64,000 nt of DNA, taken from Aggregatilineales bacterium. Lineage in GTDB: Bacteria > Chloroflexota > Anaerolineae > Aggregatilineales > J027. The notes under the pieces are model-generated. The model ran no database searches, was not told the origin of the DNA, and saw nothing but the letters and a program-made list of their open reading frames with translations. The DNA is taken from contig CBDCER010000003.1 of the NCBI GenBank assembly GCA_965215855.1, positions 3,574,560 to 3,638,559 of the forward strand, written 5' to 3'. Shown here piece by piece: positions 22,231 through 59,676 of the stretch; position 1 is the first letter of the stretch; each line of letters starts with the position of its first letter. The position numbers were made by a program, and so were the translations under genes.

Positions 22231-22263
22231 TAGATTATCTCCTGGTTGGTAACAGTATAGCTG

Positions 22264-23370: not shown

Positions 23371-23383
23371 CGACTGCTGAATA

Positions 23384-25911: not shown

Positions 25912-25929
25912 GGTAGCTCTCCTTGTGAT

Positions 25930-32998: not shown

Positions 32999-33107
32999 GG
33001 TCACCTTTTGCGGCAAGAATATCTATGTGAAATTGCCGCGCCTCCTTTTAATCCGCAATCTTGTTGTTAGCATAGCACAACCTGGCATCTTGTGAAGTCT
33101 ACCTTCG

Positions 33108-43910: not shown

Positions 43911-44064
43911 ACACGGGTCCCCGATTGCATATCATTTTAGAAGTTGTCATTGTACCCTACGCTGTTGAGCGGGGCTATGCAGTTGTAGAGTCAGTTCGCT
44001 ATACTACTGGTTACCTGGAATATGAAACAGTTGGTATTGGTCAAGGAAATTGGAGTAGTTGTGG

Positions 44065-45126: not shown

Positions 45127-45132
45127 GAGGAG

Positions 45133-46280
45133 TTGGTTATGAGTACGCAGCCCTTCATGGCTTTCATCCGCCCCGGCGTCAATGAGCAGGTTATCGAAAT
45201 CAACGTGCGTAATGGCCCAGGTACGAACTATGCCATTGCGTTTCAGGCCACAACCGGACAACAAGATTTGTCAATCCTCAATGTAAGTCCTGATGACGAA
45301 GGCCGCACACAAGGCGGGAAGGTGTATCAATGGTTCCGCTTGAAATTCCCAGATAATCGAATTGGGTGGGTACGCGATGACCTAATTGATATGCGGGGGA
45401 ATGGTACGACATTTGGCTATGGAATCGTGATGGGGCGCACCTTTGCGTTTGAATTGACCCGTGCCGATGCCAATCCCCCCAGCGCCGTAAAACCATATCC
45501 GCAATAATTAATGAAGCGCTGCGACAGCACCGCGACGATACCGAGGAGCCTGATCCACCGAGTGATGAGGATGAAGAGGAACGTATCGTCAAAACTGCTT
45601 TCAACATCACTTCGGCCTTTGAAGGCGGTGGCTATTCAGCATACCAAACTTATGATCAGGGTATCATCAGCTATGGGCGTTTTCAGTTCACACTACAGTC
45701 AGGTAATCTGGCAGCAGTCATCAACCGCTATATCGCTACATCAAACAGCATGACTGCACAGGCGCTCCGCGATGATTACCAGGCACGCCTGAACATGGGT
45801 GATGCGACATTACGTCAAGATGAGCGCCTGCAAACTTTGTTGCAACAAGCTGCCGTCGAAAAGGCGATGCAAGCTGCTCAGGACGGAATTGCCTACGAAC
45901 GGTTCTGGTTGGTGGTCTATAATCTCAGCATTACACCGCGTGGTATCCAAACCCCGCTGGCCCAGGCTATGTTCTTCGATATTGGCATTCAGCATGGCAC
46001 ACAGCACGGGCTTTTTACTCGTGCTGAGAATGAGCTTGGCGTCCCCAATAAATCAAAAGTGGGCAACAATGGTGCATCTGAAACGATGTTTGCTCAACAT
46101 ATCGCTGAGATTCGCCAGGAAATTTTGTATAGGATCGCTGAACGCGACAATGTGCCAGGTGTTAAAAAACGCGCCGATTTCTGGTTGGATATGATTAACA
46201 AGGGCGACTGGAACCTCGCTGGCGACGGCAATGGTGAGTTGCTGGTGTTGGGTAAGCGGGTGCAGGTCAGAAATCCTTAA
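45133..46280 (+). CDS. SH3b-like domain + GH46 (chitosanase)-like/lysozyme-superfamily domain protein, split by an apparent 1-nt frame break
   Basis: 45133-45507 encodes an SH3_3-like domain (INVRNGPGTNYAIAF...GKVYQWFRLKFPDNRIGWVRDDLI). A conserved domain start (RIVKTAFNITSAFEGGGYSAYQTYDQGIISYGRFQFTLQSG) lies in the -1 frame, which is open from 45453. That frame has no ATG/GTG/TTG before 45750. The frames meet at a C6 run (45475-45480). Confidence 0.5.
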
Positions 46281-46311
46281 CTGCTACAGCAGTAGGTATG
46301 ATGGTGAGTAT

Positions 46312-47088
46312 ATGCCACGTATTTTAGTTGTTGATGACGATGATCTATTGCGCCCCACGATTGCTGGGGTGCTGATTGAGGCAGGGTATGATGTGTTAGA
46401 GGCAGCCGACGTGGCCGAAGCCTGGGATATTATTCGGCAGGTAACCGGCTTCGATGTCATACTCAGTGATGTTATCATGCCTAATGTGGACGGATTAACA
46501 TTTTTGAGTGAACTTCGGCAGCAATTCACTGATATTTCGGTGGTGATGCTGACGGGGCACGGCAGTGTTAACGCAGCAGTTCAGGCCATGCGCGATGGGG
46601 CTGTCAACTACTTGCTTAAACCAGCCAGCAAAGAAGCAATTTTGGAGAGTGTTGAGGAGGCTCTCAATATTCGCCGTGAACGTCAGCAGAAACAGGCGTT
46701 GATGGGGGAGGTAATGGAGGGGTTACAAAAACTTGGCCTGGTTGATGATCCGATTGCGTCGGAGGCAGATGCACTTGGGGATTTGACGGTACGCGAACTG
46801 GTAGTTGATCAACAGCGACGGATAGCTGCTTTTCGCAGACATCCGTTGGACTTGACCCCGACGGAATTTGAAATCTTATATGCGTTGATGCAGGCGCGGG
46901 GACAGGTGGTGACCTATGAAGAGATGGTACATCGGATACAGGGAATCTGGCTTGAACGTGATGAGGCCCGCAGTATGATTACTTCCCACATCAGCAACCT
47001 GCGTGCAAAGTTGCGCGAGGCAAATTGCGGCGACTACCTGATTAACAGCCGTGGACGTGGTTATTTTATCGAAATTGACGAGGTATGA
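46312..47088 (+). CDS. OmpR/PhoB-family response regulator (REC + winged-helix)
   Basis: ILVVDDDD ... VILSDVIMPNVDG ... MLTGH ... LLKP, then a Trans_reg_C-like end (LTPTEFEILYALM...G.VV.YEE....I........R.....HISNLRAKL ... GRGY). Confidence 0.85.
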   Translation: MPRILVVDDDDLLRPTIAGVLIEAGYDVLEAADVAEAWDIIRQVTGFDVILSDVIMPNVDGLTFLSELRQQFTDISVVMLTGHGSVNAAVQAMRDGAVNYLLKPASKEAILESVEEALNIRRERQQKQALMGEVMEGLQKLGLVDDPIASEADALGDLTVRELVVDQQRRIAAFRRHPLDLTPTEFEILYALMQARGQVVTYEEMVHRIQGIWLERDEARSMITSHISNLRAKLREANCGDYLINSRGRGYFIEIDEV

Positions 47089-48227
47089 GTACAGATATTC
47101 GCCCCAAAATTTTGATTGTCGATGATGAGCCGCGTAATATACGGTTGTTGAAAGGCATTTTGTATGCGGAACCCTACCATCTCCTGACAGCCACCAGTGG
47201 CCCCGAAGCGCTTCGTATTATACAAGAACATAACCCCGATTTGATCTTGCTTGATATTATGATGCCTGGCATGAGCGGCTATGACGTTTGCCAGCAGGTC
47301 AAGAGTATGCCAGCCTATCGCATGATTCCGGTCGTTATGGTGACAGCTTTGTATGAGGTCAGTGATAGAATACAAGCTATTGAAGCCGGAGCTGATGACT
47401 TTCTCAGTAAACCGGTTGATGCCACAGAGTTGTTGGTGCGCGTGCGCTCGTTGGTGCGCGTGCGGCAATTGTATGTCGAAGTCGAACGCATCACCGCTGA
47501 ACGACTGCGATTTATGGCAGGTGTAGCCCATGATATTCGCTCCCCATTGAACGCGCTGACATTGAATCTGGAAATGATTGCAGGAAACCTACCGGAAAAC
47601 GAGCAAGTCCAGGACATCTGGTCACGAGTCCCACCGTGTATTGATAGAATCCAGATGCTGGCAAGCGATATTATGAACTATTATAAGATTGAAGCTGGTC
47701 AATTTGAATTTGAGATTGGCCTTCATCAGGCACATGACGTTGTGCAGCATGTTCTGGATATTGCACAACCAATCGCTGATGAGAAACATATTGGACTTTT
47801 GGCGGGATCTGTGGATATTGTCACTGCTTATATGGATCACGGTTCTATTGTTCAGGTATTGCTCAACCTCGTGACGAATGCCATCAGCTACACCCCTGCC
47901 GACGGCAGTGTTATATTGAACGTATATGACCTCGCACACGGGCACTATCAATTGCCATTGAACCATTATCCACCAGTGTTGGCATTACCTGTAGAAGGAG
48001 TTGTATTTGAGGTGCAAGATACCGGACAAGGCATTGCCATGCAAGACTTCAACCGCGTATTCAGTGAATTTGATCGTCTGAAAGCTGATCAGGATGGGGT
48101 AGGATTGGGACTACCGGTTTCGCAACGATTAGTGCGTCTGCATGATGGCGATATCTGGTTTGCCAGCATTGTTGGGAAGGGGTCTACCTTCGCATTCTAT
48201 TTGCCAACTCAACATTCTGCAGGATGA
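47085..48227 (+). CDS. Receiver-histidine kinase fusion
   Basis: ILIVDDEPRN ... LILLDIMMPGMSGYDV (canonical Asp). H-box VAHDIRSPLNAL. N/G boxes VTNAISYTP and GVGLGLPV. The ATG overlaps the upstream stop (ATGA at 47085-47088). Confidence 0.85.
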   Translation: MSTDIRPKILIVDDEPRNIRLLKGILYAEPYHLLTATSGPEALRIIQEHNPDLILLDIMMPGMSGYDVCQQVKSMPAYRMIPVVMVTALYEVSDRIQAIEAGADDFLSKPVDATELLVRVRSLVRVRQLYVEVERITAERLRFMAGVAHDIRSPLNALTLNLEMIAGNLPENEQVQDIWSRVPPCIDRIQMLASDIMNYYKIEAGQFEFEIGLHQAHDVVQHVLDIAQPIADEKHIGLLAGSVDIVTAYMDHGSIVQVLLNLVTNAISYTPADGSVILNVYDLAHGHYQLPLNHYPPVLALPVEGVVFEVQDTGQGIAMQDFNRVFSEFDRLKADQDGVGLGLPVSQRLVRLHDGDIWFASIVGKGSTFAFYLPTQHSAG

Positions 48228-48228
48228 T

Positions 48229-50145
48229 ATGATCGAGATTCTATTCATCCTATCGCTAATTGCCGGTTGGGGATTGAGTATTCTCTATTTGCTTCGTCGG
48301 CGACTACCAGCACGGCCAATACCACTCGCAACCGACACTATTGAACATCAGCTAACTCTGGCGTTAAATACACTCTCTGGTTTCGTCCTCGAAGTCAACG
48401 CGGCTGGTGACGTCTTCAGCAGTCGTTCTTCCCGTGGTGAGACCTTTCAAGGCAATATCACCGAAATCTTTCCGCGCCCTCAAGCTCGCGTTCTGATGCG
48501 GGCTATTCAGAAAGCTGCCGAGGCAGGCTATCACGAAGGACCAATCTATACTCAAGGGAAACTTTGGTTCGAGGTCGCCGTGTCTCGATGCGAAATTCCT
48601 GCGGGACACTTTCTGCTATTGGCCCGCGACATTACAACACAGCAGCAAACTGAGCTGGAACTGGCCCGGTTTCGTGCCGTCATGGATCAGGCTGGCGAAG
48701 CTATTTTTATCACAGAGGCAGACGGTGGCTATTTCATTGATGTCAACGAAACGGCCTGTCGGATGTTGGGATATTCGCGCGGGGAACTGCTCACTATGCG
48801 GACACGCGATGTCGAAATTGCCTATCCTATTCAAACTACCGGACAGTGGCACACCCATGTCGCGGAGGTAGCGGAAGCCCAGGAACCAATCCTAACCACC
48901 GAAAATATTCTGCTACGGAAAGACGGCACAACATTTCCCGCCGAAGTGCTGGCAACACTCAAGAGCTTTCAGCACAATAACTATATCCTGACAGTTGTAC
49001 GTGACATCACTGTTCGCAAGAAGACACAAATCGAGCTGGCCCGGTTTCGCGCTGTCATGAATCGTGCTGGCGAAGCTGTTTTGATTATGGATGCCAAAGA
49101 TGGTCGTTTTATTGATATTAACGAAACGGCCTGTCGGATGTTGGGATATTCGCGCCAGGAGTTGCTCACTATGCGGGCACGCGATGTCGAGATTACTTAT
49201 CCGCTCCAGACCACCGGGCAGTGGCGTAGCCATGTGACTGAAGTTGCCCAAATGGGTGAGCCTATACTCATTTCGGAAAGCACCTTGCAACGTAAGGATG
49301 GTGGAACATTCCCAGCTGAAGTGTCGGCAGCACTGGAAACTTTTGAGGGTCAGGAATATATCTTGATGGTTGTGCGTGATATCACGGATCGGAAGCAAGC
49401 CGAACATGAATTATTAGAGGCCAAGGAAGTGGCGGAAGCGGCTAGCCGTGCAAAAAGCGCATTTCTGGCAAACACTAGCCACGAATTGCGAACGCCATTG
49501 AATTCTATCATCGGCATGTCACAGGTTTTGTTGATGCAGGCCATTGGTCCCTTGAATCCACATCAACAAGAAAATGTAGATGATATTCTATATTGTGGGC
49601 GGCATTTGCTGGCAATCATTAATGATATCCTCGACTTGAGCAAGGTTGAAAACAGCCGCCTGGAGTTGGTATTAGAGAATGTAGAGATGGCATCTTTGAT
49701 CCACGATAGCCTTGCATTGGTACATGATAAAGCCGACCAGACCCATATCACTATTCGTACTGATCTGGATGAAGATCTGCCACCATTACGTGTAGACCGT
49801 CGCCGAATTACTCAGGTTCTCTCCAATTTGTTGATAAATGCTATCAAGTTTACGCCGCAAAACGGAGAAATCGGCATTCGGCTTCAACGTGACCAGCAAT
49901 ACATTCGCACCGAGGTCTGGGATACTGGTATTGGTATTTCGCCAGAAAACCTGAAGCGGTTATTCTTACCCTTTGAGCGCCTGGAAGACGCCTTGCCTGC
50001 CCGTCACTATGAAGGTAGTGGGTTGGGTTTGGCGCTGAGTAAGCAGCTTATTGAGTTGCACGATGGTACAATCGGAGCGACCTCTGTGGGTGAAGGCCAG
50101 GGATCAACGTTTTGGTTTACATTACCTATCAGCGATGAGGGATAA
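48229..50145 (+). CDS. Membrane-anchored multi-PAS histidine kinase
   Basis: N-terminal TM (ILFILSLIAGWGLSILYLL), three PAS-like modules (two are a tandem duplicate), H-box TSHELRTPLNSIIG, and N/G boxes LINAIKFTPQNG and GSGLGLALS. The ATG is 1 nt after the upstream stop. Confidence 0.85.
   Translation: MIEILFILSLIAGWGLSILYLLRRRLPARPIPLATDTIEHQLTLALNTLSGFVLEVNAAGDVFSSRSSRGETFQGNITEIFPRPQARVLMRAIQKAAEAGYHEGPIYTQGKLWFEVAVSRCEIPAGHFLLLARDITTQQQTELELARFRAVMDQAGEAIFITEADGGYFIDVNETACRMLGYSRGELLTMRTRDVEIAYPIQTTGQWHTHVAEVAEAQEPILTTENILLRKDGTTFPAEVLATLKSFQHNNYILTVVRDITVRKKTQIELARFRAVMNRAGEAVLIMDAKDGRFIDINETACRMLGYSRQELLTMRARDVEITYPLQTTGQWRSHVTEVAQMGEPILISESTLQRKDGGTFPAEVSAALETFEGQEYILMVVRDITDRKQAEHELLEAKEVAEAASRAKSAFLANTSHELRTPLNSIIGMSQVLLMQAIGPLNPHQQENVDDILYCGRHLLAIINDILDLSKVENSRLELVLENVEMASLIHDSLALVHDKADQTHITIRTDLDEDLPPLRVDRRRITQVLSNLLINAIKFTPQNGEIGIRLQRDQQYIRTEVWDTGIGISPENLKRLFLPFERLEDALPARHYEGSGLGLALSKQLIELHDGTIGATSVGEGQGSTFWFTLPISDEG
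48661..49410 (+). repeat. Intragenic tandem duplication of a 375-bp PAS-encoding unit
   Basis: CTGGCCCGGTTTCG recurs at 48661 and 49036 (period 375 bp = 125 codons). Long identical runs are shared, for example AACGAAACGGCCTGTCGGATGTTGGGATATTCGCGC. The encoded units are roughly two-thirds identical by eye. Confidence 0.8.
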
Positions 50146-53100
50146 TGCAAAAACAGCCACAGGATGATCTTCGAGGGCAGATCGTCAAGAACTACCGGAT
50201 TGATGAATTGATCGGCTCTGGTGGAACCAGTGTGGTTTATCGTGCCTACCAATCCGTCATTGAACGTGAAGTCGCCATTAAAGTCATTTTGCCCGCCTAC
50301 GCCAATCACGTGGAGTTCATCCGGCGCTTTGAACGCGAAGCCAGGATTATTGCCCGGCTCGAACATCCTTATATCGTCCCTCTCTACGACTATTGGCGCG
50401 AACCTGGCGGGGCGTATTTGGTTATGCGTTTGTTGCGAGGCGGGAGTTTGGCAGATCGCATCGTACAGGGACCATTATCACTTGAAACTGTTGCCCAAAT
50501 TCTGGAGCAGGTCGCAGATGCGTTAACAACAGCACACCAAAACAATATCGTTCATCACGATTTGAAGCCCAGCAACCTCTTGATGGACGAACAAGACCAT
50601 GTCTTTCTGGCCGATTTCGGAATCGCCAGAAATGTTCAGCAAGATGACTCTTCTGAGATAGAATTGCTGGGGTCTATCGCTTATCTCTCTCCAGAACAGA
50701 TACACCGCCAACCACCGACCCGGCACAGTGACATATTTAGCCTCGGTCTCATCGTGTATGAAATGCTCACTGGCAAGCATCCATTTCCCGATACTGATCG
50801 CAGTAGCTTGATGCTTCACCTGCTAAAAATCCCGTTGCCTTTGCTGCAAGGCGAGATAGCGCGTCTCAATCCAGTAATACAACAGGCGACTGCTAAGACA
50901 CCCGAAGACCGTTTTGAAAATTCCCAGGCGCTGGCTCATGCCTTTCGTCAGGCACTAGGTGGGGATAGTCATCCAGCCACCATCGACACAGTTTCGACGA
51001 CCGTTATTCGCAATCCCTACAAAGGTTTGCACGCTTTTCAAGAAGCTGATGCTGGTGATTTTTTTGGGCGCGAGCGTTTGGTTGAGCAGTTATTACAACA
51101 CCTCGATACGGATTATGGCCCACAACTTCTGGCAGTAGTTGGTCCCAGCGGCAGCGGTAAATCTAGCGTAGTCAGGGCTGGTTTGATTCCAGCTTTGCGT
51201 GGTGGTGCATTACCTGGAACTGATCGGTGGTTAGTGGCAGAGATGTCGCCAGGCGACAATCCATTTCAAGAACTGGCAGCAGCATTGCTTCATATTGCCG
51301 TCCATCCGGTTGAGAATCTTCTGGAGCAGATACAGAAAGACCCTGCTGGGCTGATGTGCGCTATAGACCATATGTTGCCCGATGATGATACTGAGTTGTT
51401 GCTGTTTATTGACCAGTTCGAAGAGTTATTTACGCTGGCCGAAGACGAGGTAACACGACAGCATTTTTTGAATACCCTTGTCACGACTGTGACGAAACCT
51501 TTCAGCCGGGTTCATGTGGTTCTATGTTTGCGGGCTGATTTCTATGACCTTCCATTGCAATACCCGGAATTCGCCACTGCGATGCGACCACACACCGAAA
51601 TTGTTATCCCTATGACATTAGATGAATTGGAGCAGGCCATCGTTGGCCCCGCTACCCAGCGCGGACTAATATTGGATCTAGGTTTGGTAGCAACTATCAT
51701 CAAGGATGTACGGGAGCAACCCGGCACTTTGCCCTTGCTTCAATATGCACTAACTGAATTGTTTGAACACCGTCGGGGCAACCAACTTACATTGGCATCG
51801 TATCAGAGCATTGCTGGGGTATCGGGGTCATTGGCACGGCGAGCCGAGACAATTTACGCAGTATTGCTTCCCACTGAGCAAGATGCAGCACGTCAGGTAT
51901 TTCTGCGATTAGTCACATTAGGAGAAGGAACCGAAGATACCCGTCGGCGAGTTCAACATTCAGAACTTGCCTCCATCAGCATTGAATCCACCAGCCTGGA
52001 GCGTGTACTGGAACTATTTGGGCGCTATCGCCTATTAACTTTCGATCATGAACCGTCTACGCGTGTGCCCACTGTTGAGATTGCTCACGAGGCGCTGATT
52101 AAAACATGGGGGCGTTTCTGGGGTTGGATTAATGACAGTCGGGACGACTTACGGTTGCATCGGCGACTAGCAGTTGCTACTGGTGAATGGTTGAACGCAG
52201 GCCGCGATACGAGTTTCCTGGCCGCTGGTGTGCGCTTAGAGCAATTTGACCGCTGGGCGTCCGCTACACCGTTGGTTTTGACAGAATATGAGCGTCAATA
52301 TTTGCAGGCCAGCACTGTTGAGGAGACAAAACAACGCACACTGGAAATGGAGCGTAAAGCGCGCGAGGCTGTTTTGGAACGCCGTTCACAATACCGATTG
52401 CGGGCGTTGGTTATGCTGATGGTCGTCGCCGTCGTCATTGCCTTTATATTGATGACCTGGGCACTGAATGAGCGAGCGAGCGCCAAAAGTAATGCTGATA
52501 ATGCAGCAACCGGCGCGGCAATTGCTCGGCGTAGTTCTGAAGAATCGCAAAGTCTGGCGTGGGCAACGTCGGCGCGGCAGTCACTTCGGGACAATAACCC
52601 GGATTTAGCGATTGTCCTGGCTTTGGAGGCTAATCGCATTGACCAACCACCTTTTCAAGCCCAGCAGGCTTTGGCCGAAGCCGTATATTCTGCCGGAACC
52701 GTTCGCCGCTATGTTTTTCCATACTTCCAGATCAATATGACCAGTTTTGCAGTTGGGCCAGATGGTCGGACTTTACTGATCGGGCACAGTGATCGCACTT
52801 TGCGGTTGTGGGACATGGAGACTGGGCAAGAAATCCGAGAGTTTCCGGGGCACGATGCGCTAGTCTATAGCCTGGCATATAGCTCAGGCGGGCGCACGGC
52901 CATCGCAGGAACTGGCAATGGCATATTGATCGTATGGGATGTGGTGACGGGGGCGGAAATTATTCGATTGCTGGGGCATCAAGATCCAATCAGTGCTATT
53001 CGTTATGCTCCATCTGGCCGGCAAGTTGCTTCTGCGTCACGTCGTGGTGAGATTATTCTGTGGAACCTGGACGATGGCGATCAACTGGCGGCTTTCTCCG

Positions 53101-54629
53101 GCCATAGCAGCCGCGTGACCCAGCTGGATTTTAGCCTTGATGGCCGTCTTATTGTCTCTGGGGCACTGGACGGCACAGTACGCGTCTGGGATATTCTGGA
53201 ACAACAAGAAATGTTGCAGTTGGACAGTCATCAGGGTAATGTGACGACGGTGGCGTTTAGTCCTGATAACCGCACCATATTGTCCGGAGGGTCAGACAAT
53301 AGCTTGATCGTGTGGGATGTTGAGACCGGCTTGGAACTACATCGCCTCGAAGGACACACGGGAGTTATCCACGATTCTATCTTCAGCGAAGATGGACGAA
53401 CGGTACTCTCTGGAGCCGAGGATGGAGCGGTGATTGTGTGGGACGTGAATACAGGTGAAGAGATTCGCCGTCTAATTGGACACAATGGCCCGGTATGGTC
53501 CATTTCTCCTGTTGCATCTGGTGATCGTGGAATTGTTTCGTTGTCGGCAGATGGTAGTGTGCGCGTTTGGGATATTGAAAGCGGGGCACAACTCAGACGC
53601 ATGGTGGCCCATGGCTCCGACGTAACTGGCGTCGCTTTTGCACCAAGTGGGCAACGTGCTATCTCGGCATCATTGGATCGGACCCTGATTTTGTGGGATT
53701 TGGAAACAGGAGAATCTCTCCAGCAATTCACAGGGCACACCGATTGGATACTGGCAGTGGCAATCAGCCCAGACAGTACCCAAGCGATATCAGGCTCACT
53801 GGATCGGACCCTGATTTTGTGGGACTTGAAAACCAATACGATGATGCTGCAATTGTTGGGGCATAGTCGCGAGGTGATAGACGTCGCTTTTAGCCCCGAT
53901 GGCAACCAAGTTTTGTCGGGATCTGCTGATCATACAGTGCGGCTGTGGGATACAACCACAGGCGATGAAGTGCTTCGCTTGGTCGGTCACAGCGGTCAGG
54001 TCTGGCATGTGGCGTTTAGCCCGGATGGTTCAATGGTCGCTTCAGCCTCGATAGATGGTTCCGTGCGGTTGTGGGATGCCACAAGCGGTGAATTGCTACA
54101 AATATTGGAAAGCCCAGAAATACAATTGATGAGTATTGCATTTAGTCCTGATGGGCGCTTGATGATGGCTGGCTCGGCAGATGCCCGACTATATTTATGG
54201 AACATCGCATCAGGCCAAGAATTACGCCAGTTCATTGGGCATAATGGGCCGGTCGTTGATGTGGCCTTTAGCCCCAATGGGAAAACTATCTTGTCCGCGT
54301 CAACAGATCGTAGCTTGCGCCTCTGGGATGTTTCAACTGGTGATGAGCTGGCACGTTTTGATGGACACACCGCTGAAGTAACTGGGGTAGCATTTAGCCC
54401 CGATGGACGCAGCGCACTATCCGCCTCACGAGATAGCACATTGCGACTATGGCGTACTTTTCGGTCGCTACAAGAAATGATGGAATGGGCCTATGCCAAC
54501 CGGTATGTGCGCCCATTGAGTTGTGAGGAACGCGAGAAATATTTGGTCACACCATATTGTGGGGGTGACGCCACGCTTTTCGCCGAAACTCCGCTGCCTA
54601 TACCAACGATACTGTCGCTCCCTCAGTGA
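50145..54629 (+). CDS. Ser/Thr protein kinase - STAND (nSTAND-like) NTPase - TM - WD40 repeat protein, 1494 aa (paralog of 33108..37886)
   Basis: Kinase motifs GSGGTSVV, VAIK, VHHDLKPSNLL (non-RD), DFGIAR and SIAYLSPE. NPYKGLHAFQEADAGDFFGR follows, with Walker A GPSGSGKSS and Walker B LLLFIDQFEE. The TM helix is about 52399-52467 (LVMLMVVAVVIAFILMTWAL), followed by about 14 WD40 repeats. The ATG shares its A with the upstream TAA (50143-50147). Confidence 0.85.
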   Translation: MQKQPQDDLRGQIVKNYRIDELIGSGGTSVVYRAYQSVIEREVAIKVILPAYANHVEFIRRFEREARIIARLEHPYIVPLYDYWREPGGAYLVMRLLRGGSLADRIVQGPLSLETVAQILEQVADALTTAHQNNIVHHDLKPSNLLMDEQDHVFLADFGIARNVQQDDSSEIELLGSIAYLSPEQIHRQPPTRHSDIFSLGLIVYEMLTGKHPFPDTDRSSLMLHLLKIPLPLLQGEIARLNPVIQQATAKTPEDRFENSQALAHAFRQALGGDSHPATIDTVSTTVIRNPYKGLHAFQEADAGDFFGRERLVEQLLQHLDTDYGPQLLAVVGPSGSGKSSVVRAGLIPALRGGALPGTDRWLVAEMSPGDNPFQELAAALLHIAVHPVENLLEQIQKDPAGLMCAIDHMLPDDDTELLLFIDQFEELFTLAEDEVTRQHFLNTLVTTVTKPFSRVHVVLCLRADFYDLPLQYPEFATAMRPHTEIVIPMTLDELEQAIVGPATQRGLILDLGLVATIIKDVREQPGTLPLLQYALTELFEHRRGNQLTLASYQSIAGVSGSLARRAETIYAVLLPTEQDAARQVFLRLVTLGEGTEDTRRRVQHSELASISIESTSLERVLELFGRYRLLTFDHEPSTRVPTVEIAHEALIKTWGRFWGWINDSRDDLRLHRRLAVATGEWLNAGRDTSFLAAGVRLEQFDRWASATPLVLTEYERQYLQASTVEETKQRTLEMERKAREAVLERRSQYRLRALVMLMVVAVVIAFILMTWALNERASAKSNADNAATGAAIARRSSEESQSLAWATSARQSLRDNNPDLAIVLALEANRIDQPPFQAQQALAEAVYSAGTVRRYVFPYFQINMTSFAVGPDGRTLLIGHSDRTLRLWDMETGQEIREFPGHDALVYSLAYSSGGRTAIAGTGNGILIVWDVVTGAEIIRLLGHQDPISAIRYAPSGRQVASASRRGEIILWNLDDGDQLAAFSGHSSRVTQLDFSLDGRLIVSGALDGTVRVWDILEQQEMLQLDSHQGNVTTVAFSPDNRTILSGGSDNSLIVWDVETGLELHRLEGHTGVIHDSIFSEDGRTVLSGAEDGAVIVWDVNTGEEIRRLIGHNGPVWSISPVASGDRGIVSLSADGSVRVWDIESGAQLRRMVAHGSDVTGVAFAPSGQRAISASLDRTLILWDLETGESLQQFTGHTDWILAVAISPDSTQAISGSLDRTLILWDLKTNTMMLQLLGHSREVIDVAFSPDGNQVLSGSADHTVRLWDTTTGDEVLRLVGHSGQVWHVAFSPDGSMVASASIDGSVRLWDATSGELLQILESPEIQLMSIAFSPDGRLMMAGSADARLYLWNIASGQELRQFIGHNGPVVDVAFSPNGKTILSASTDRSLRLWDVSTGDELARFDGHTAEVTGVAFSPDGRSALSASRDSTLRLWRTFRSLQEMMEWAYANRYVRPLSCEEREKYLVTPYCGGDATLFAETPLPIPTILSLPQ

Positions 54630-56257
54630 CCGGTAAACATGAACAGCCATGAGCCAACGGTCACAACATCGCCCACGCTCAATTCAAAGGGGTCTTCGAC
54701 TCGCCCACCATTAGCAAAAGTGCCATTGGTGCTTCCCAAGTCTTCCAAAAACAGTTTGCCACTCTTTGCCACAATTTGACAATGATGCTCCGACACGTCT
54801 GGTTCAGGAATGACAATATCGTTATCGTTAGCTCGTCCGATTTGCAAACGTGGCATCGTCAAACCCAACTCCTGGCGTTTCCATTTTATTTTGGTAGGCG
54901 TTGCACCTTTGCGCTCAACCGCACGACGCGACGACTTCAGGCGTGTGTGGATCATGACAGTTTCTTCGCGGCGTATACGTTGGGTGGAGTAGAAAACTTT
55001 AGAGCGACTGGATTTACGTGAATAGGCATCATAGCGTTGCGCCCCAAGTTCCATATCCACGGCTTCTTCACGTAACATATCGTGTTCGGCCTGCAATTCA
55101 TCATCGTCCAGGTTAGCATCTTGGATAGCATTTGCCGCCTCTCCAAGCGCCTCCGCTGCTTGTTGATAGTCACCTTTGTCTGCCTGTTGAATAGCTTCGT
55201 CGCGTGCCCGTGCTGCTTGCAAAAGCAAAGCTGACTTCAAAACTTCTAGGTTCGGCTGCTGTCCCTCATAATCTACTTCAGGAACAATGTTGATCGTAAT
55301 TGGAAATTCGATGACACGATGTTCGGTTTTGTCATCAGTAATCTCATCATATTCAAAACGTAGCTGCGCGATCTCAACTTCACCCAAGTCCTTAAGTGAC
55401 GGAATCGTCAATTCGAACAAGAGCGCTTTCATTTCGTCGTGGTACAAGTCACCCATGCGATAGTGTGTGGCGTCTCCCTGTTTTTCTGTGGGATAGGTAT
55501 TGAGCTGATTAATCGTCTGAATATGGTCGGATGATGTCAAGGTGACGACAAGGTTCTGGCCGACGACTGCCAACAGGTCGCGCAATTCTTCCGCAAATAT
55601 GTGAGGCGCTTGGTCGGGATTGTCGATAAAGTAAAATGCGCCGCCGCCCTCGGCTGCCATCCGAGTCAGTAAATCTTCATTGAAATCCATGCCAACGCCC
55701 ATTGTTGTTGTTGTGACTCCTGTATCACGTTTTTGACGAGCCATGGATGAGAGTTGGCCGGGGTCTTTGACACCCTGGTTGGCAAGGCCGTCCGTCAACA
55801 GAAGTACACGGTCAACTTGTCGCTCTGCCAGATTATCATGCACCAATTGACAACCTTGCAACCATCCCCCACTGAGATTAGTTGTGCCGCCCGCCATCAG
55901 TTTTTGAATGGCGTGACTGATTCGATCTTTGTTACTGACTACGGTTGGCTGTAAATCGACAGTGACATCCTGATTATATGAGACTAGGCTGAAATGATCA
56001 CGTGCGCCCAGATGCCGGATCAAGAACTGTGCGGCCTTTTTGACATAATCGAGTTTGTCACCAGCCATTGAGCCGCTGCGATCTAACACTACGCTGATAT
56101 TCAGCGGTAGCCGTTCGCTGGTGGATGGTTTCGCTTTGATGCGTGCCATCAAATAGACACGGTGTTCACGCTCTACTGATAGCACGTCGTAATCGAGGAC
56201 ATAGTCTGCCTGCATCACATTTTCTCCATTCCGGATGTCGGATGTCAGTGCCGTCAT
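54623..56257 (-). CDS. von Willebrand A (VWA) - linker - FHA domain protein
   Basis: MIDAS motif VVLDRSGSMAGDKL with downstream LLTDGLAN and TTTMGVG. A central helical region follows. The C-terminal FHA is LQIGRANDNDIVIPEPDVSEHHCQIV...LEDLGSTNGTFANG. Its stop overlaps the stop of the convergent kinase gene (TCAGTGA). An alternative ATG is at 56215. Confidence 0.8.
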   Translation of the reverse strand: MTALTSDIRNGENVMQADYVLDYDVLSVEREHRVYLMARIKAKPSTSERLPLNISVVLDRSGSMAGDKLDYVKKAAQFLIRHLGARDHFSLVSYNQDVTVDLQPTVVSNKDRISHAIQKLMAGGTTNLSGGWLQGCQLVHDNLAERQVDRVLLLTDGLANQGVKDPGQLSSMARQKRDTGVTTTTMGVGMDFNEDLLTRMAAEGGGAFYFIDNPDQAPHIFAEELRDLLAVVGQNLVVTLTSSDHIQTINQLNTYPTEKQGDATHYRMGDLYHDEMKALLFELTIPSLKDLGEVEIAQLRFEYDEITDDKTEHRVIEFPITINIVPEVDYEGQQPNLEVLKSALLLQAARARDEAIQQADKGDYQQAAEALGEAANAIQDANLDDDELQAEHDMLREEAVDMELGAQRYDAYSRKSSRSKVFYSTQRIRREETVMIHTRLKSSRRAVERKGATPTKIKWKRQELGLTMPRLQIGRANDNDIVIPEPDVSEHHCQIVAKSGKLFLEDLGSTNGTFANGGRVEDPFELSVGDVVTVGSWLFMFTGH

Positions 56258-56501
56258 TTTATCATCATCTGATTTCGTTCACTATGCCCGCCATCATTTC
56301 ATAAAAAAGTGAGCGCTAAGTCTTGCCAAAGCACAAGCGCGATATTACTTATGAGAATACATCTTCTCAAAAGTAATCAATCTTAAACGACCCATTACGT
56401 CATTTTCATCGCCGCAAGCCGACCAACTAACGCTTTGCAAGAGCAGTTGATTTATGCTACAAATGCGCTTTCCCAACATTCATTGAGGAACCGCTGATCT
56501 C

Positions 56502-57347
56502 ATGCTCAACACCCTCTGGCAAACCGTTATTTTTGGACTGATCGCTTCAGCCTCGTTCGGGGCTGCTGATTTCAGCGGCGGATTCGCCACTAAGCGCACC
56601 AGCGTCTATACCGTCATCATTGTTTCACAAGCAGTTGGCTTTGGCTTGATGTTAATTTTATTGGCATTGTTTTGGGAGGTATTGCCGCCTGTAGATGAAA
56701 TCATATGGGGGTGTTTAGCAGGTATCGCGGGGGTGTCAGCCTTGATGGTATTCTATAAAGGGCTGTCAGTGCGTCCTATGAGTGTGTTTTCCCCAGTGGC
56801 GTCGGTGGTGTCAGTAGCATTTCCAGTTATCGTCAGCGGCATTATCGAAGGTGCGCCTTCTGATTCTCAAAAGGTGGGCATCGCACTTGCTTTTGTTGCT
56901 GTTTGGATAATTTCTCGACCCGACGGCAGTGCCCCGATTCATCTACGTGAGATTAATTGGCCGTTACTGGCTGGATTGCTTATCGGCTGTTTTTTCGTCT
57001 TCCTGGAGCGTGCTAGTCAATCGACCACGATCTGGCCGATGGTTATTGCTCGCATTACATCGTTAACAATGATGACGGCCATCATTCTCGCTATGGGGCG
57101 CAGCTTCCGTCCTCCAAGACCTAGGATTCCAATGATCGCGCTAGCCGGGTTGCTTGATGTTGGCGGCAATGTCTTCTTCATCCTCGCGGCCCAAAAAGGA
57201 CGGCTCGATATTGCAACCGTGCTGGCGTCGTTTGCGCCTGCCACAACGGTAGTGCTGGCGTGGGGTGTGTTGAACGAACGCATAACACGTCGTCAATTAA
57301 TCGGTCTGGGCGCGATTCTGGTGGCTATCACATTGATCGTTGTATGA
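56502..57347 (+). CDS. EamA/DMT-superfamily transporter
   Basis: Ten hydrophobic helices in two similar halves, with size and pattern typical of EamA-domain permeases. Confidence 0.75.
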   Translation: MLNTLWQTVIFGLIASASFGAADFSGGFATKRTSVYTVIIVSQAVGFGLMLILLALFWEVLPPVDEIIWGCLAGIAGVSALMVFYKGLSVRPMSVFSPVASVVSVAFPVIVSGIIEGAPSDSQKVGIALAFVAVWIISRPDGSAPIHLREINWPLLAGLLIGCFFVFLERASQSTTIWPMVIARITSLTMMTAIILAMGRSFRPPRPRIPMIALAGLLDVGGNVFFILAAQKGRLDIATVLASFAPATTVVLAWGVLNERITRRQLIGLGAILVAITLIVV

Positions 57348-57386
57348 TTCTGATTTTCCCCATTACGACGTGCGAGTGTGTTATGT

Positions 57387-57411
57387 AGAACCCGCCGGGA
57401 GGACGGGTTCT
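57387..57411. terminator. Bidirectional terminator hairpin between convergent genes
   Basis: AGAACCCG (57387-57394) pairs perfectly with CGGGTTCT (57404-57411). It lies between the stops at 57347 (+) and 57426 (-). Confidence 0.5.
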
Positions 57412-57425
57412 GTGATAAAGTTCGC

Positions 57426-58523
57426 CTATTTGCGTTCTTTCAACCACTCAGCGATGGTCGGCGGCAGTGATTTCTGAATTCTACCACTAACATACATGCC
57501 AATGTGGCCTGCTGGAAAACCTTTGACGGTGTAGTCCGATGTGCCTACATACTTTTCCAGCGGGGTCGTCGATGATGGTGGCACCAGGTGATCGTTCTCA
57601 GCATAAAGATTCAGGACCGGCATGGTGAGATTGCTCAGATCAACACGTTGACCGTCAAGCTCAACTTCACCTTTAATGAACTTGTTGTCCATGTAGAAGT
57701 CGGTCATAAACTGATGCCAGGCTTCACCGGCCTGATCGGGGCTGTCAAAAATCCATTTTTCCATACGCAAGAAGTTGGCAGCATTACCCGCATTATCCAC
57801 TACATCCAGCAAACTCAAGTATTTCTGTAAGCCCAACTCGAACGGCTTCAGCATGAGAAAACCGAAGTTCATGAAGTCGCCGGAAACATTACCCATCGCC
57901 TCGACCATCAGAGCCGGGTCCATGGTTGGTGTGGATGTACCGCATCCCATCCAGACATTCAGTAAACCATCGGTCACGTGGAAATCTACCGGAGCAACCA
58001 TCACCACCAAATTTTTGATCTTCTCAGGGTGTAGTGCCGAGTAGCACATACTGAAAACGCCGCCCTGACATATACCAAGTAAGTTGATGGCATCCAGACC
58101 ATGCGCTTGGCGGACATAATCCACACAACTGTCGATATAGCCATTGATATAGTCATCCAGGGTCAGCCAGCGATCATTGCGTTTCGGGTAGCCCCAGTCA
58201 ATCAGGTATACATCAATCCCCAAGCTCAATAGATTTCGTACTAGGGATCGGTTTTCCTGTAAATCGACCATATAAGGCCGGTTGACGAGCGCATAGGAAA
58301 TGACCAGAGGAATCGGGAAAATCTCGGACTCATCATCGACTAGTGGCTTGTAACGATATAACACCACATGATCGTCCTGGAAAACGGCTTCTTTCTCAGA
58401 CACGCCATATTGAATGTCTTCAGGATTCAAGCCACTGAGAACTTTCACGCCCTCAACTGCCTTGCGACTCATGTCAACTACTTCCTGAGTCGCCTCTTCA
58501 AGATCAATTGGGAAAGGAAACAT
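57426..58523 (-). CDS. phaC: Class III poly(R)-hydroxyalkanoate synthase, catalytic subunit
   Basis: 365 aa alpha/beta hydrolase with the lipase-box variant GICQGG (Cys nucleophile). Its size and its adjacency to a PhaE-like gene fit a class III synthase. Confidence 0.8.
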   Translation of the reverse strand: MFPFPIDLEEATQEVVDMSRKAVEGVKVLSGLNPEDIQYGVSEKEAVFQDDHVVLYRYKPLVDDESEIFPIPLVISYALVNRPYMVDLQENRSLVRNLLSLGIDVYLIDWGYPKRNDRWLTLDDYINGYIDSCVDYVRQAHGLDAINLLGICQGGVFSMCYSALHPEKIKNLVVMVAPVDFHVTDGLLNVWMGCGTSTPTMDPALMVEAMGNVSGDFMNFGFLMLKPFELGLQKYLSLLDVVDNAGNAANFLRMEKWIFDSPDQAGEAWHQFMTDFYMDNKFIKGEVELDGQRVDLSNLTMPVLNLYAENDHLVPPSSTTPLEKYVGTSDYTVKGFPAGHIGMYVSGRIQKSLPPTIAEWLKERK

Positions 58524-58546
58524 CAGTTCTTCTGCTCCTTCGCACT

Positions 58547-59659: not shown

Positions 59660-59676
59660 CAAGGTATCGTCCCCTC

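What the first reader, a model, noticed from the sequence alone, without database searches (positions are those of the whole stretch)
46312..56257. His-Asp phosphorelay genes translationally coupled to a kinase-STAND-WD40 gene, facing a VWA-FHA gene with overlapping stops
Seen: four plus-strand genes are joined by overlapping or abutting stop/start codons.
- The OmpR-type RR stop overlaps the REC-HK start (ATGA at 47085-47088).
- The REC-HK stop is 1 nt before the PAS-HK ATG (48229).
- The PAS-HK TAA shares a base with the kinase-STAND-WD40 ATG (50145).

The convergent gene 54623..56257 encodes VWA (DRSGSMAGD MIDAS) plus FHA, and its stop overlaps the kinase gene stop (TCAGTGA). This kinase has HHD instead of HRD (non-RD type).

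Established: FHA domains bind phosphothreonine and are frequent partners of Hanks kinases. VWA-containing proteins recur next to STAND/ternary conflict systems.

Inference: this is one regulatory unit integrating two-component and Ser/Thr signalling with a STAND switch, with VWA-FHA as the likely substrate or adaptor.
Basis: partly seen in the sequence, partly recalled or inferred. Interest (0 to 1): 0.65.

Follow-up and report, generated by a model that had tools for sequence, protein, structure and literature searches.

The report
Clade-specific two-component plus receptor-kinase operon
Four signalling genes in an Anaerolineae bacterium really are packed into one operon, but only the regulator plus receiver-kinase pair is old, and the neighbouring VWA-FHA gene is a widespread stand-alone gene that sits here in just one narrow clade.

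Summary
The four plus-strand genes are joined at -4, +1 and -1 nt.

The same five-gene arrangement recurs in four relatives' distinct loci, with junctions of -35 to +17 nt and different flanks. A co-transcribed operon is therefore well supported.

The "one unit" reading holds only in part:
- **RR plus REC-HK** is the only widely conserved core. Orthologues at 56-57% identity keep the RR but have no Ser/Thr kinase and no VWA-FHA.
- **The operon kinases** form one monophyletic subgroup, so the link arose once.
- **VWA-FHA** is a broadly conserved Anaerolineae gene. It stands alone in all 11 evaluable loci outside the clade.
- **Convergent stop overlaps** occur in 5 of 9 convergent pairs in this window.
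- **HHD** is unique to this genome. All four orthologues and 85 of 93 homologues have HRD.

Two new points:
- A transmembrane helix separates kinase-nSTAND1 from the WD40 propellers in 90 of 93 homologues. This makes it a receptor-type kinase with a predicted external sensor.
- VWA-FHA has the fold of archaeal ArnB fused to an ArnA-like FHA domain.

Verdict: a real but clade-limited new variant of known signalling parts. Interest is moderate.

The parts
45145..46280 (+). SH3 plus GH46-like (lysozyme/chitosanase-like) gene directly upstream of the RR. It is frameshifted in this window near 45507-45546. It may be the first gene of the transcription unit in some relatives.
   Evidence: tblastn with the intact 358-372 aa proteins of L081, L083, L170 and L171 gives two pieces in different frames. 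In L171 it overlaps the RR start by 4 nt, and in L170 it lies 9 nt away. Pfam: SH3_3 and Glyco_hydro_46.
46312..47088 (+). OmpR-family response regulator (REC, a linker of about 60 aa, winged helix), 258 aa.
   Evidence: Pfam Response_reg 95 bits and Trans_reg_C 59 bits. Start MPRILVVDDDD. Orthologues lie upstream of REC-HK in all 7 loci examined.
47085..48227 (+). Soluble histidine kinase with an N-terminal receiver domain (REC-HisKA-HATPase), 380 aa.
   Evidence: Pfam. Present are DD, LLDIMMPG, the H-box AHDIRSPL, the N-box and the G-boxes. No hydrophobic segment. It forms a discrete orthologue group at 51-69% identity, followed by a sharp drop.
48229..50145 (+). Membrane-anchored PAS-PAS histidine kinase, 638 aa. 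N-terminal TM helix at 48238-48294. The two PAS repeats are 68% identical.
   Evidence: Pfam. TM segment at aa 4-22. Repeat identity. H-box SHELRTPLNS is conserved in 5 genomes, and L081/L083 carry one PAS only.
50145..54629 (+). Receptor-type Ser/Thr kinase, 1494 aa: Pkinase, nSTAND1 NTPase, TM helix, two WD40 propellers.
   Evidence: Pfam Pkinase 177 bits, nSTAND1 405 bits, WD40 in 13 stretches. Motifs found: VAIK43, DFG157, Walker A GPSGSGKS333, Walker B DQFEE423.
50193..50942 (+). Hanks-type kinase domain (aa 17-266).
   Evidence: The alignment shows all catalytic motifs.
50553..50561 (+). Catalytic-loop codons CAT CAC GAT = HHD. This is a lineage-specific R-to-H change.
   Evidence: The four orthologues and both paralogue types have HRD. 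Among 93 full-length homologues the residue is R in 85, Q in 4 and H in 1.
51015..52211 (+). nSTAND1 NTPase module (aa 291-689).
   Evidence: PF20703, positions 1-378 of 379, E = 8.6e-121.
52398..52454 (+). Predicted transmembrane helix (aa 752-770, LRALVMLMVVAVVIAFILM) between the STAND module and the WD40 repeats.
   Evidence: Kyte-Doolittle mean of 2.87 over 19 aa. It is found in all orthologues and paralogues and in 90 of 93 full-length homologues at aa 730-793.
52743..54467 (+). Tandem WD40 beta-propellers (aa ~867-1441), predicted to be extracytoplasmic.
   Evidence: Pfam. The closest solved chains are 2ymu, PkwA 5yzv and Apaf-1. Topology is inferred from the TM helix with Arg/Lys on its N-terminal side.
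54623..56215 (-). VWA-FHA gene, 530 aa from M15 (the ORF extends to 56257). Domains: vWA 55595-56101, beta-sandwich 55283-55567, helical bundle 54932-55249, FHA 54626-54898.
   Evidence: Pfam. AlphaFold model with pLDDT 89.4. Foldseek: 4fx5, ArnB 8s05_A (TM 0.77) and vWA2 5a8j. Invariant residues include the MIDAS set D-x-S-x-S/T/D and the FHA set GR, S-x-x-H, NG.
54623..54629 (.). 7-nt overlap of the two convergent stop codons (TCAGTGA).
   Evidence: In relatives the spacing is -4, -7, 0 and +2 nt. Overlaps of this kind occur in 5 of 9 convergent pairs in the window.

Best explanation
This is a clade-specific signalling operon in an Anaerolineae (Chloroflexota) genome. It was built by adding genes to an older pair.

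**The old core.** It is an OmpR-type response regulator plus a soluble histidine kinase that carries its own N-terminal receiver domain (REC-HK).

**The additions.** In one narrow clade two genes were added downstream and are expressed from the same tightly packed transcript:
- a membrane-anchored PAS histidine kinase;
- a receptor-type Ser/Thr kinase, with kinase and nSTAND1 NTPase in the cytoplasm, one transmembrane helix, and two WD40 propellers outside.

**Likely mechanism (inferred, not shown).**
1. The PAS kinase phosphorylates the receiver domain of REC-HK. This sets REC-HK activity towards the RR, as CheA3 does to CheS3.
2. Ligand binding to the external WD40 domain drives NTP-dependent oligomerisation of the STAND module and trans-activation of the Ser/Thr kinase.
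3. The kinase then adds Ser/Thr phosphorylation onto the His-Asp components or other targets.
4. An internal signal and an external signal thus converge on one transcription factor.

**The VWA-FHA gene.** It is a separate, much more widely conserved transcription unit. It is a single-chain version of the archaeal ArnB (vWA, beta-sandwich, helical bundle) plus ArnA (FHA) phospho-switch. It probably responds to Ser/Thr kinases in general. Its position beside this kinase is best explained as inherited synteny. The zero-length 3'-3' junction leaves no neutral breakpoint, which would help preserve the adjacency.
For: **Shown: the operon is real and conserved**
- Junctions are -4, +1 and -1 nt.
- The same order, with junctions of -35 to +17 nt, occurs in L081, L083, L170 and L171 while both flanks differ.
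- No plus-strand gap larger than 31 nt exists from 44128 to 54629.

**Shown: layered origin**
- REC-HK orthologues at 56-57% identity (L172, L173) keep the RR directly upstream (48% and 41% identity). They lack the kinase and VWA-FHA.
- Operon-linked kinases are monophyletic among 100 homologues.
- The nearest outside kinases (L088, L089) have no two-component genes and no VWA-FHA nearby.

**Shown: the proteins look catalytically competent**
- Motifs are intact in the kinase and NTPase, REC-HK and PAS-HK.

**Shown: membrane topology**
- A TM helix sits between nSTAND1 and WD40 in all orthologues and in 90 of 93 homologues. The PAS-HK has an N-terminal anchor.

**Shown: VWA-FHA is an independent gene**
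- 3108 homologues were found, with the top 120 all at 53-72% identity and about 530 aa.
- It stands alone in L085-L087 and in 8 evaluable loci among L001-L010.
- It has its own upstream region of 244-286 nt.
- Its fold matches ArnB with an added FHA domain.

**Precedents from the literature**
- CheA3 phosphorylates the CheS3 receiver domain.
- Ser/Thr kinases phosphorylate response regulators such as CovR, WalR, VraR and GraR.
- ArnC phosphorylates the ArnB helical bundle, which is then bound by the ArnA FHA domain.
Against: - No transcript data exist. The promoter and terminator scans are uninformative, with counts equal to shuffled sequence.
- Phosphotransfer partners are inferred from gene order only. 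The window holds at least 9 histidine-kinase genes, so a two-component gene next to a kinase is not rare here.
- The clade sample is small: five full loci, plus four more inferred from matching contig lengths.
- The kinase tree is neighbour-joining without bootstrap support.
- The outside location of the WD40 domain rests on hydropathy and the positive-inside rule, not on experiment.
- The VWA-FHA adjacency survived four different flank configurations. In L006 another VWA-FHA orthologue lies within 4 kb of two Ser/Thr kinases. A specific functional link therefore cannot be excluded.
Confidence: 0.6

Rival explanations
1. All five genes form one regulatory unit, and the VWA-FHA protein is the dedicated substrate or adaptor of this STAND kinase. 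The kinase phosphorylates Thr residues in or next to the helical bundle, and the FHA domain docks on them or on the autophosphorylated kinase.
For: - The adjacency is kept in every clade member examined, while the gene on the other side of VWA-FHA differs: EamA, CoA-ligase/acetyltransferase, M17 peptidase or tRNA synthetase.
- ArnB-like fold plus FHA. ArnB is phosphorylated by the Hanks kinase ArnC, which also carries repeat domains.
- A Deinococcus operon combines vWA, STPK, FHA and PP2C.
- A Ser/Thr-rich basic segment (aa ~396-445) precedes the FHA domain and is conserved in the five genomes.
- In L006 a VWA-FHA orthologue sits near two Ser/Thr kinases.
Against: - 11 evaluable VWA-FHA loci outside the clade lack the kinase-STAND gene, and 10 of them have no kinase within reach.
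- VWA-FHA is far more widespread than the kinase subgroup, so most VWA-FHA proteins must work without it.
- The genes are convergent and VWA-FHA has its own upstream region.
- Overlapping convergent stops are common in this genome.
- No PP2C phosphatase was found among the genes scanned in the window.
- The association has a single evolutionary origin.
Confidence: 0.25
2. The kinase-nSTAND1-WD40 protein, perhaps with VWA-FHA, is a conflict or immunity (NLR-like) system of a multicellular filamentous bacterium. The two-component genes would merely regulate it.
For: - nSTAND1 was defined in the context of predicted counter-invader systems, with S/T/Y-kinase and FHA among the N-terminal domains.
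- The family is greatly expanded in Anaerolineae: 7576 hits, with two copies in this window.
- A TIR-domain gene lies 2.4 kb upstream.
- vWA proteins occur in ternary conflict systems.
Against: - No MoxR AAA+ or VMAP gene and no effector-associated domains are present.
- PADLOC matches only the generic kinase domain. There is no hit for VWA-FHA or for the TIR protein.
- The predicted extracytoplasmic sensor is unlike cytosolic antiviral STAND proteins.
- Neighbours are housekeeping genes.
- VWA-FHA is a conserved, slowly evolving gene.
- The WD40 region shows no repeat hypervariability or DGR signature.
Confidence: 0.08
3. The link between the two-component genes and the kinase has no functional meaning. 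A duplicated member of a very large kinase family landed next to one of many two-component operons. Compaction then made the junctions tight.
For: - At least 9 histidine-kinase genes and 2 kinase-STAND genes lie in 64 kb.
- The link has a single origin.
- Tight junctions leave no neutral breakpoints.
- The kinase evolves faster (51-58% identity) than its neighbours.
Against: - Translational-coupling-type junctions between PAS-HK and the kinase persist in five genomes at roughly 50-70% protein identity.
- PAS-HK and the kinase seem to have been gained together.
- Co-transcription imposes co-regulation whatever the origin.
Confidence: 0.12

Closest known systems
ArnA/ArnB phospho-switch with Hanks kinase ArnC (Sulfolobus acidocaldarius)
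   Same: The first ~420 residues of VWA-FHA share the ArnB tripartite fold of vWA, beta-sandwich and helical bundle. Foldseek gives 8s05_A at TM 0.77 and 5a8j at 0.73. An FHA domain with intact pThr-binding residues is present, as in ArnA. In Sulfolobus the kinase phosphorylates the helical bundle and the FHA domain then binds it.
   Different: - Here the two parts are one polypeptide, and the ArnA zinc finger is absent.
- The host is a bacterium and no archaellum is involved.
- No phosphorylation data exist.
- Sequence identity to ArnB is only about 16%.
Deinococcus radiodurans DRA0331-DRA0334 operon (vWA, STPK, FHA, PP2C)
   Same: vWA, FHA and a Ser/Thr kinase are encoded next to each other in a bacterium. 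The FHA protein modulates kinase phosphorylation.
   Different: - There all genes are co-oriented in one operon, with a PP2C phosphatase.
- vWA and FHA are separate proteins.
- There is no STAND module, no WD40 repeat and no two-component gene.
Pkinase-nSTAND1 proteins (Pfam PF20703; clade named by Kaur et al. 2021)
   Same: An N-terminal S/T/Y kinase, the nSTAND1 NTPase and C-terminal repeats in one chain.
   Different: - Those were described as predicted cytosolic conflict systems with effector-associated domains.
- Here a TM helix separates NTPase and sensor, the gene is translationally coupled to a two-component operon, and no conflict-system partners are present.
Receptor Ser/Thr kinases with extracellular beta-propellers (M. 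tuberculosis PknD; PkwA of Thermomonospora curvata)
   Same: A kinase linked to a beta-propeller sensor. The PkwA WD40 domain (5yzv) is among the best sequence matches. The PknD layout of kinase, TM helix and propeller is from my own knowledge.
   Different: A STAND NTPase is inserted between the kinase and the membrane. There are two seven-bladed WD40 propellers instead of one NHL propeller.
CheA3 to CheS3 cascade (Rhodospirillum centenum)
   Same: One histidine kinase phosphorylates the receiver domain of a second REC-containing histidine kinase, and only the second kinase feeds the response regulator. The gene set here (PAS-HK, REC-HK, RR) fits this logic.
   Different: That pathway is chemotaxis-like, with a single-domain CheY output. 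The phosphate flow here is untested.
Ser/Thr kinase cross-talk with two-component or STAND regulators (Stk1-CovR, PknB-WalR, Stk-GraR/VraR; AfsK-AfsR)
   Same: Hanks kinases phosphorylate OmpR-type regulators. AfsK targets AfsR, which carries an NB-ARC STAND module and a DNA-binding domain.
   Different: In those cases the kinase and the two-component system are usually unlinked genes. Here they share an operon, and the STAND module is in the kinase itself.

Membership tests
OmpR-family two-component response regulator | Receiver domain with acidic pocket and phospho-acceptor Asp, plus a C-terminal winged-helix Trans_reg_C domain | tested here: met
   Response_reg 95.2 bits (cut-off 30.2) and Trans_reg_C 58.8 bits (cut-off 26.2). 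DDDD and SDVIMP motifs are present. No NCBIfam equivalog reaches its cut-off.
Histidine kinase (HisKA class), both REC-HK and PAS-HK | H-box histidine in the DHp domain, and N, G1 and G2 boxes in HATPase_c | tested here: met
   Pfam HisKA and HATPase_c score above cut-off in both proteins. H-boxes are AHDIRSPL and SHELRTPL.
Histidine kinase (HisKA class), both REC-HK and PAS-HK | Autophosphorylation and phosphotransfer to the adjacent RR | not testable with these tools
   This needs in vitro phosphotransfer profiling.
Hanks-type Ser/Thr protein kinase | Catalytic Lys (VAIK), catalytic Asp, Asn, DFG and APE/SPE motifs | tested here: met
   Pkinase 176.7 bits. VAIK43, HHD137-139, DFG157 and SPE are present.
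Hanks-type Ser/Thr protein kinase | RD-type catalytic loop (Arg before the catalytic Asp) | tested here: not met
   HHD occurs in this genome only. The four orthologues have HRD, and 85 of 93 homologues have R. The non-RD state belongs to this sequence, not to the family.
STAND NTPase, nSTAND1 clade | nSTAND1 NTPase module with Walker A and Walker B | tested here: met
   PF20703 scores 404.6 bits against a cut-off of 27.1 and covers positions 1-378 of 379. GPSGSGKS333 and DQFEE423 are present.
STAND NTPase, nSTAND1 clade | C-terminal repeat sensor in the same compartment as the NTPase, able to fold back on it (the canonical autoinhibition model) | tested here: not met
   WD40 repeats are present, but a strongly hydrophobic 19-aa segment lies between them and the NTPase in 90 of 93 homologues. 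Topology is predicted only.
vWA-MoxR-VMAP ternary conflict system | Adjacent MoxR AAA+ ATPase and VMAP genes, with the vWA protein carrying an effector or EAD domain | tested here: not met
   Neither is found among the neighbours scanned, nor in relatives' loci.
Known anti-phage defence systems (PADLOC) | Match to a system-specific protein model beyond a shared generic domain | tested here: not met
   Only kinase-domain matches were found (PD-T4-6, mad6, MkoA over aa ~10-280). VWA-FHA and the TIR protein gave none.
ArnB/ArnA-type vWA-FHA phospho-switch | Tripartite fold of vWA, beta-sandwich and regulatory helical bundle | tested here: met
   AlphaFold model with pLDDT 89.4. Foldseek: 8s05_A at E = 7.5e-22 and TM 0.77; 5a8j at TM 0.73.
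ArnB/ArnA-type vWA-FHA phospho-switch | FHA domain with pThr-binding residues | tested here: met
   FHA 76.3 bits. Invariant G460-R461, S475, H478 and N497-G498.
ArnB/ArnA-type vWA-FHA phospho-switch | Zinc-finger domain of ArnA that contacts ArnB | tested here: not met
   No such domain is present. The FHA domain is fused directly after the helical bundle.
ArnB/ArnA-type vWA-FHA phospho-switch | Phosphorylation of the helical bundle by a Hanks kinase, and phospho-dependent FHA binding | not testable with these tools
   This needs kinase assays and pull-downs.
Operon (single transcription unit) | Same strand, short or overlapping junctions, and gene order conserved in relatives | tested here: met
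Operon (single transcription unit) | One mRNA spanning all four genes | not testable with these tools
   The consensus promoter and terminator scans do not differ from shuffles.

The most novel reading that the evidence does not exclude
A bacterial counterpart of the archaeal Arn network, wired to a two-component system. An extracytoplasmic WD40 sensor would activate a membrane-spanning STAND Ser/Thr kinase by NTP-driven oligomerisation. The kinase would then phosphorylate both the co-transcribed His-Asp proteins and the neighbouring single-chain ArnAB-like vWA-FHA switch. This would be a three-layer relay (His-Asp, Ser/Thr and STAND) not described before, and the STAND NTPase would receive its signal across a membrane.
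Probability: 0.12. Interest if true: 0.7.

Novelty: new variant of a known kind. Interest (0 to 1): 0.4.

Why it matters
- **A testable case of pathway integration.** If the operon works as proposed, it shows how a His-Asp pathway and a Ser/Thr receptor kinase are joined in a poorly studied, filamentous phylum. The evolutionary order of assembly is clear: RR plus REC-HK first, then PAS-HK and the kinase.
- **A question about STAND mechanism.** Placing the repeat sensor of a STAND NTPase on the far side of a membrane is a family-wide feature. It asks how STAND activation can work without the sensor folding back on the NTPase.
- **A tractable bacterial ArnAB-like protein.** The FHA-fused ArnB-like protein is common in Anaerolineae. 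It offers a single-chain bacterial model of the archaeal ArnAB switch.
- **Limits.** None of this changes current concepts.

Tried and rejected
- **Genome-collection scan.** I used a VWA-FHA alignment. It returned only relatives at 48% identity or less. These served as outside-clade controls but not for the close clade.
- **Metagenome scan.** I used REC-HK. The generic LDIMMPGM receiver pattern flooded it. The best hit was 36% identical and no orthologue was recovered, so the scan was wasted.
- **Naming the organism.** The window's own VWA-FHA was not on record for exact look-up. The source is known only as an Anaerolineae-like genome with a 3.68-Mb contig.
- **Defence and curated families.** PADLOC and NCBIfam gave only domain-level matches.
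- **RNA and repeats.** Rfam found nothing in 44000-57500. There are no tandem DNA repeats in 46000-56500.
- **Promoters and terminators.** The scans matched the shuffled expectation. Internal promoters can be neither shown nor excluded.
- **Structure library.** The afdb50 fold library was unavailable.
- **Idea considered and rejected.** The operon kinase might be a recent copy of the paralogue at 33108-37886. The two are 51% identical and fall in different tree clades.
- **Idea considered and rejected.** HHD might mark a non-RD kinase family. It is a single-genome change.

Full report
**1. Observation**

- RR 46312-47088 ends in ATGA, shared with REC-HK 47085-48227.
- The REC-HK TGA (48225-48227) is followed by one base and then the PAS-HK ATG at 48229.
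- The PAS-HK TAA shares A50145 with the ATG of the 1494-aa kinase gene (50145-54629).
- The kinase TGA and the minus-strand TGA of 54623-56257 overlap in TCAGTGA.

Pfam confirms every domain named: REC plus Trans_reg_C; REC-HisKA-HATPase; two PAS plus HisKA-HATPase; Pkinase plus nSTAND1 plus 13 WD40 stretches; VWA plus FHA. The MIDAS string DRSGSMAGD and the catalytic loop IVHHDLKPSN are present.

Two small corrections apply. The VWA-FHA protein most likely starts at M15 (56215, 530 aa), as in the deposited protein and all homologues. An upstream in-frame ATG at 48142 is possible for PAS-HK but is disfavoured by relatives.

**2. Is it more than chance?**

Within the window the three operon junctions (-4, +1, -1) are among the five tightest of 24 same-strand junctions. 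By contrast, 5 of 9 convergent gene pairs overlap by 4-20 nt. The same-strand packing is therefore a fair operon signal. The overlapping stops with VWA-FHA are ordinary for this compact genome.

The window is also very rich in two-component genes, with at least nine histidine kinases, and it holds a second kinase-nSTAND1-WD40 paralogue at 33108-37886. Mere adjacency of such genes is thus not rare here.

Promoter-like and terminator-like motifs occur at the frequency of shuffled sequence. No Rfam family is present.

**3. Conservation of the five-gene block**

The VWA-FHA protein has thousands of homologues in Anaerolineae/Chloroflexota. The best 120 are all about 530 aa and 53-72% identical.

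*Inside the clade.* For relatives at 64-68% identity (L081/L082, L083, L170, L171) the whole block is conserved. It runs RR, REC-HK, PAS-HK, Pkinase-nSTAND1-WD40, then a convergent VWA-FHA.
- Same-strand junctions range from -35 to +17 nt.
- 3'-3' distances are -4, -7, 0 and +2 nt.
- The genes on both flanks differ between genomes.
- Matching contig lengths across the three protein searches suggest four more members.

*Outside the clade.* The picture changes.
- VWA-FHA orthologues at 62, 59 and 55% identity (L085-L087), and eight evaluable loci at 45-48% (within L001-L010), stand alone among housekeeping genes.
- The closest kinase homologues outside the clade (L088, L089; 51-52%) have no two-component genes and no VWA-FHA next to them.
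- REC-HK has a sharply bounded orthologue group at 51-69% identity.
- Two members from outside the clade (L172, L173; 57% and 56%) still have the OmpR-type RR directly upstream (48% and 41% identity). They have no Ser/Thr kinase and no VWA-FHA. L172 has no PAS-HK, and L173 has a different one after an extra receiver gene.

*Kinase phylogeny.* In a neighbour-joining tree of 100 kinase-STAND regions, the operon-linked kinases form one clade apart from all others, including the window's own paralogue.

*Conclusion.* The RR plus REC-HK pair is the old core. PAS-HK and the receptor kinase were added once. VWA-FHA became a neighbour once.

**4. What the proteins are**

All catalytic and phospho-acceptor motifs are intact.
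- Kinase: VAIK, H-x-D, DFG, SPE.
- NTPase: Walker A and Walker B.
- REC-HK: DD/D/T/K of the receiver domain.
- Both histidine kinases: H-boxes and the N and G boxes.

HHD is a single CGC-to-CAC-type change. It is found only in this genome. The four orthologues have HRD, and among 93 full-length homologues the residue is R in 85, Q in 4 and H in 1.

Arg-rich sequence lies on its N-terminal side. It is present in all orthologues and paralogues and in 90 of 93 full-length homologues. The kinase and NTPase need cytoplasmic ATP, so the two WD40 propellers are predicted to lie outside the cell. This makes the protein a receptor-type kinase. PAS-HK has an N-terminal membrane anchor. REC-HK, RR and VWA-FHA have no such segment.

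**5. The VWA-FHA protein**

An AlphaFold model built on 21 homologues is confident (pLDDT 89.4). It shows a vWA domain, a beta-sandwich (217-311), a helical bundle (323-428) and an FHA domain (440-530).

Foldseek against the PDB gives as best hits:
- the Catenulispora vWA protein 4fx5;
- Sulfolobus ArnB in the ArnAB complex (8s05_A, TM 0.77 over 423 columns);
- the ArnB paralogue vWA2 (5a8j).

The FHA part matches Rv1747, GarA, EmbR and ArnA by sequence. [quoted passage not shown] The Anaerolineae protein is thus a single-chain ArnB plus ArnA-FHA, without the ArnA zinc finger.

A search of 1.84 billion cluster representatives finds 2146 proteins at E <= 1e-30. Among the 150 best, most are ~410-440-aa ArnB-like cores without FHA. 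Only about ten 50%-identity clusters carry the FHA fusion. The papers read here describe no fused bacterial form. A Deinococcus vWA-STPK-FHA-PP2C operon is a bacterial precedent for the three domains working together.

**6. Most likely mechanism**

*Shown.* One tightly packed, conserved gene string; intact catalytic residues; the predicted topology; and the layered evolutionary origin.

*Inferred.*
- PAS-HK phosphorylates the receiver domain of REC-HK and so tunes phosphate flow to the RR, as in CheA3 to CheS3.
- Ligand binding to the external WD40 domain promotes STAND-driven oligomerisation and kinase trans-activation.
- The kinase modifies the co-expressed two-component proteins, as many Hanks kinases do with OmpR-type regulators, and/or other targets.

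VWA-FHA is probably a general phospho-Thr-responsive switch for Ser/Thr kinases of these organisms. A special tie to this kinase is possible but rests on one evolutionary event. Because the 3' ends abut or overlap, no neutral breakpoint exists between the two genes, so persistent adjacency is weak evidence.

**7. Rivals**

The adjacency survives four flank configurations. In L006 another VWA-FHA orthologue lies within 4 kb of a Pkinase-REC-GerE fusion and a Pkinase-SH3 protein.
- *Conflict-system reading.* It is unlikely. There are no MoxR, VMAP or EAD partners, PADLOC gives only generic kinase matches, the sensor is predicted to be external, and the neighbours are housekeeping genes.
- *Accidental insertion plus compaction.* This cannot be excluded for the kinase. 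It does not alter the fact of co-transcription.

**8. Novelty and verdict**

All parts belong to known kinds. Pkinase-nSTAND1-repeat proteins are catalogued, and receptor kinases with propellers and vWA/FHA phospho-switches are known. Three things are new:
- the clade-specific translational coupling of such a kinase to a two-component operon;
- the family-wide membrane separation of the STAND NTPase from its repeat sensor;
- the fused ArnAB-like architecture.

I rate it a new variant of a known kind, of moderate interest.

Noticed in passing
window 33108-37886 (-): A second Pkinase-nSTAND1-TM-WD40 paralogue (1592 aa, HRD, 51% identical over the kinase-STAND region). It has no two-component genes attached. 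It is flanked by a WD40/TSP3 protein (39476-41401) and another WD40 protein (31733-33016).
   Followed up: partly
window 42351-43910 (-): A 519-aa protein with an N-terminal TIR_2 domain, a FecR-like domain and a C-terminal SH3_3 domain. It is divergent from an AIRS/ThiL-like gene (44128-45126). A similar SH3 protein and AIRS gene pair flanks the kinase in L088 and L089. PADLOC gives no hit.
   Followed up: partly
window 45145-46280 (+): The SH3 plus GH46-like gene just upstream of the RR is split by a frameshift near 45507-45546. It is intact (358-372 aa) in four relatives, and in L171 it overlaps the RR start. This is either a pseudogene or an indel error in a long-read assembly.
   Followed up: yes
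window 48634-49404 (+), inside PAS-HK: Two tandem PAS domains are 68% identical in protein and 73% in DNA. L170 and L171 also have two, while L081 and L083 have one (513 aa). The pattern is consistent with loss by recombination between the repeats.
   Followed up: partly
window 21574-24523 (-): A second set with the same logic: REC-HisKA-HATPase (23384-24523, only 25% identical to the operon REC-HK), a HisKA_3 kinase (22264-23370) and a LuxR-type RR (21574-22230). It lies directly downstream of Tad/TadE pilus-like genes (24643-27594). The window holds at least nine histidine-kinase genes.
   Followed up: partly
window 12876-12879, 21574-21593, 30855-30858, 62905-62908: Four further convergent gene pairs overlap at their 3' ends by 4-20 nt. 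One pair is the housekeeping CoaX/CoaBC genes. Convergent stop overlap is therefore a general trait of this genome.
   Followed up: yes
L006 2264-3865 (-), 8683-10524 (-), 10684-13269 (+): In another Anaerolineae MAG a VWA-FHA orthologue (45% identical) lies within 4 kb of three signalling genes: a Pkinase-REC-GerE fusion (a Ser/Thr kinase fused to a LuxR-type response regulator), a GAF-HisKA_3 kinase and a Pkinase-SH3 protein.
   Followed up: partly
proteins P0152, P0181, P0228, P0196, P0217, P0219, P0232, P0207, P0225: Close kinase-nSTAND1 homologues carry other modules. Some have an FGE-sulfatase (formylglycine-generating enzyme-like) domain instead of WD40. Others have a GerE or HTH_3 DNA-binding domain.
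   Followed up: no
window 57426-59860 (-): Class III polyhydroxyalkanoate synthase genes lie just beyond the EamA transporter gene: PhaE (PHA_synth_III_E, 58547-59860) and an alpha/beta-hydrolase PhaC-like gene (57426-58523).
   Followed up: no
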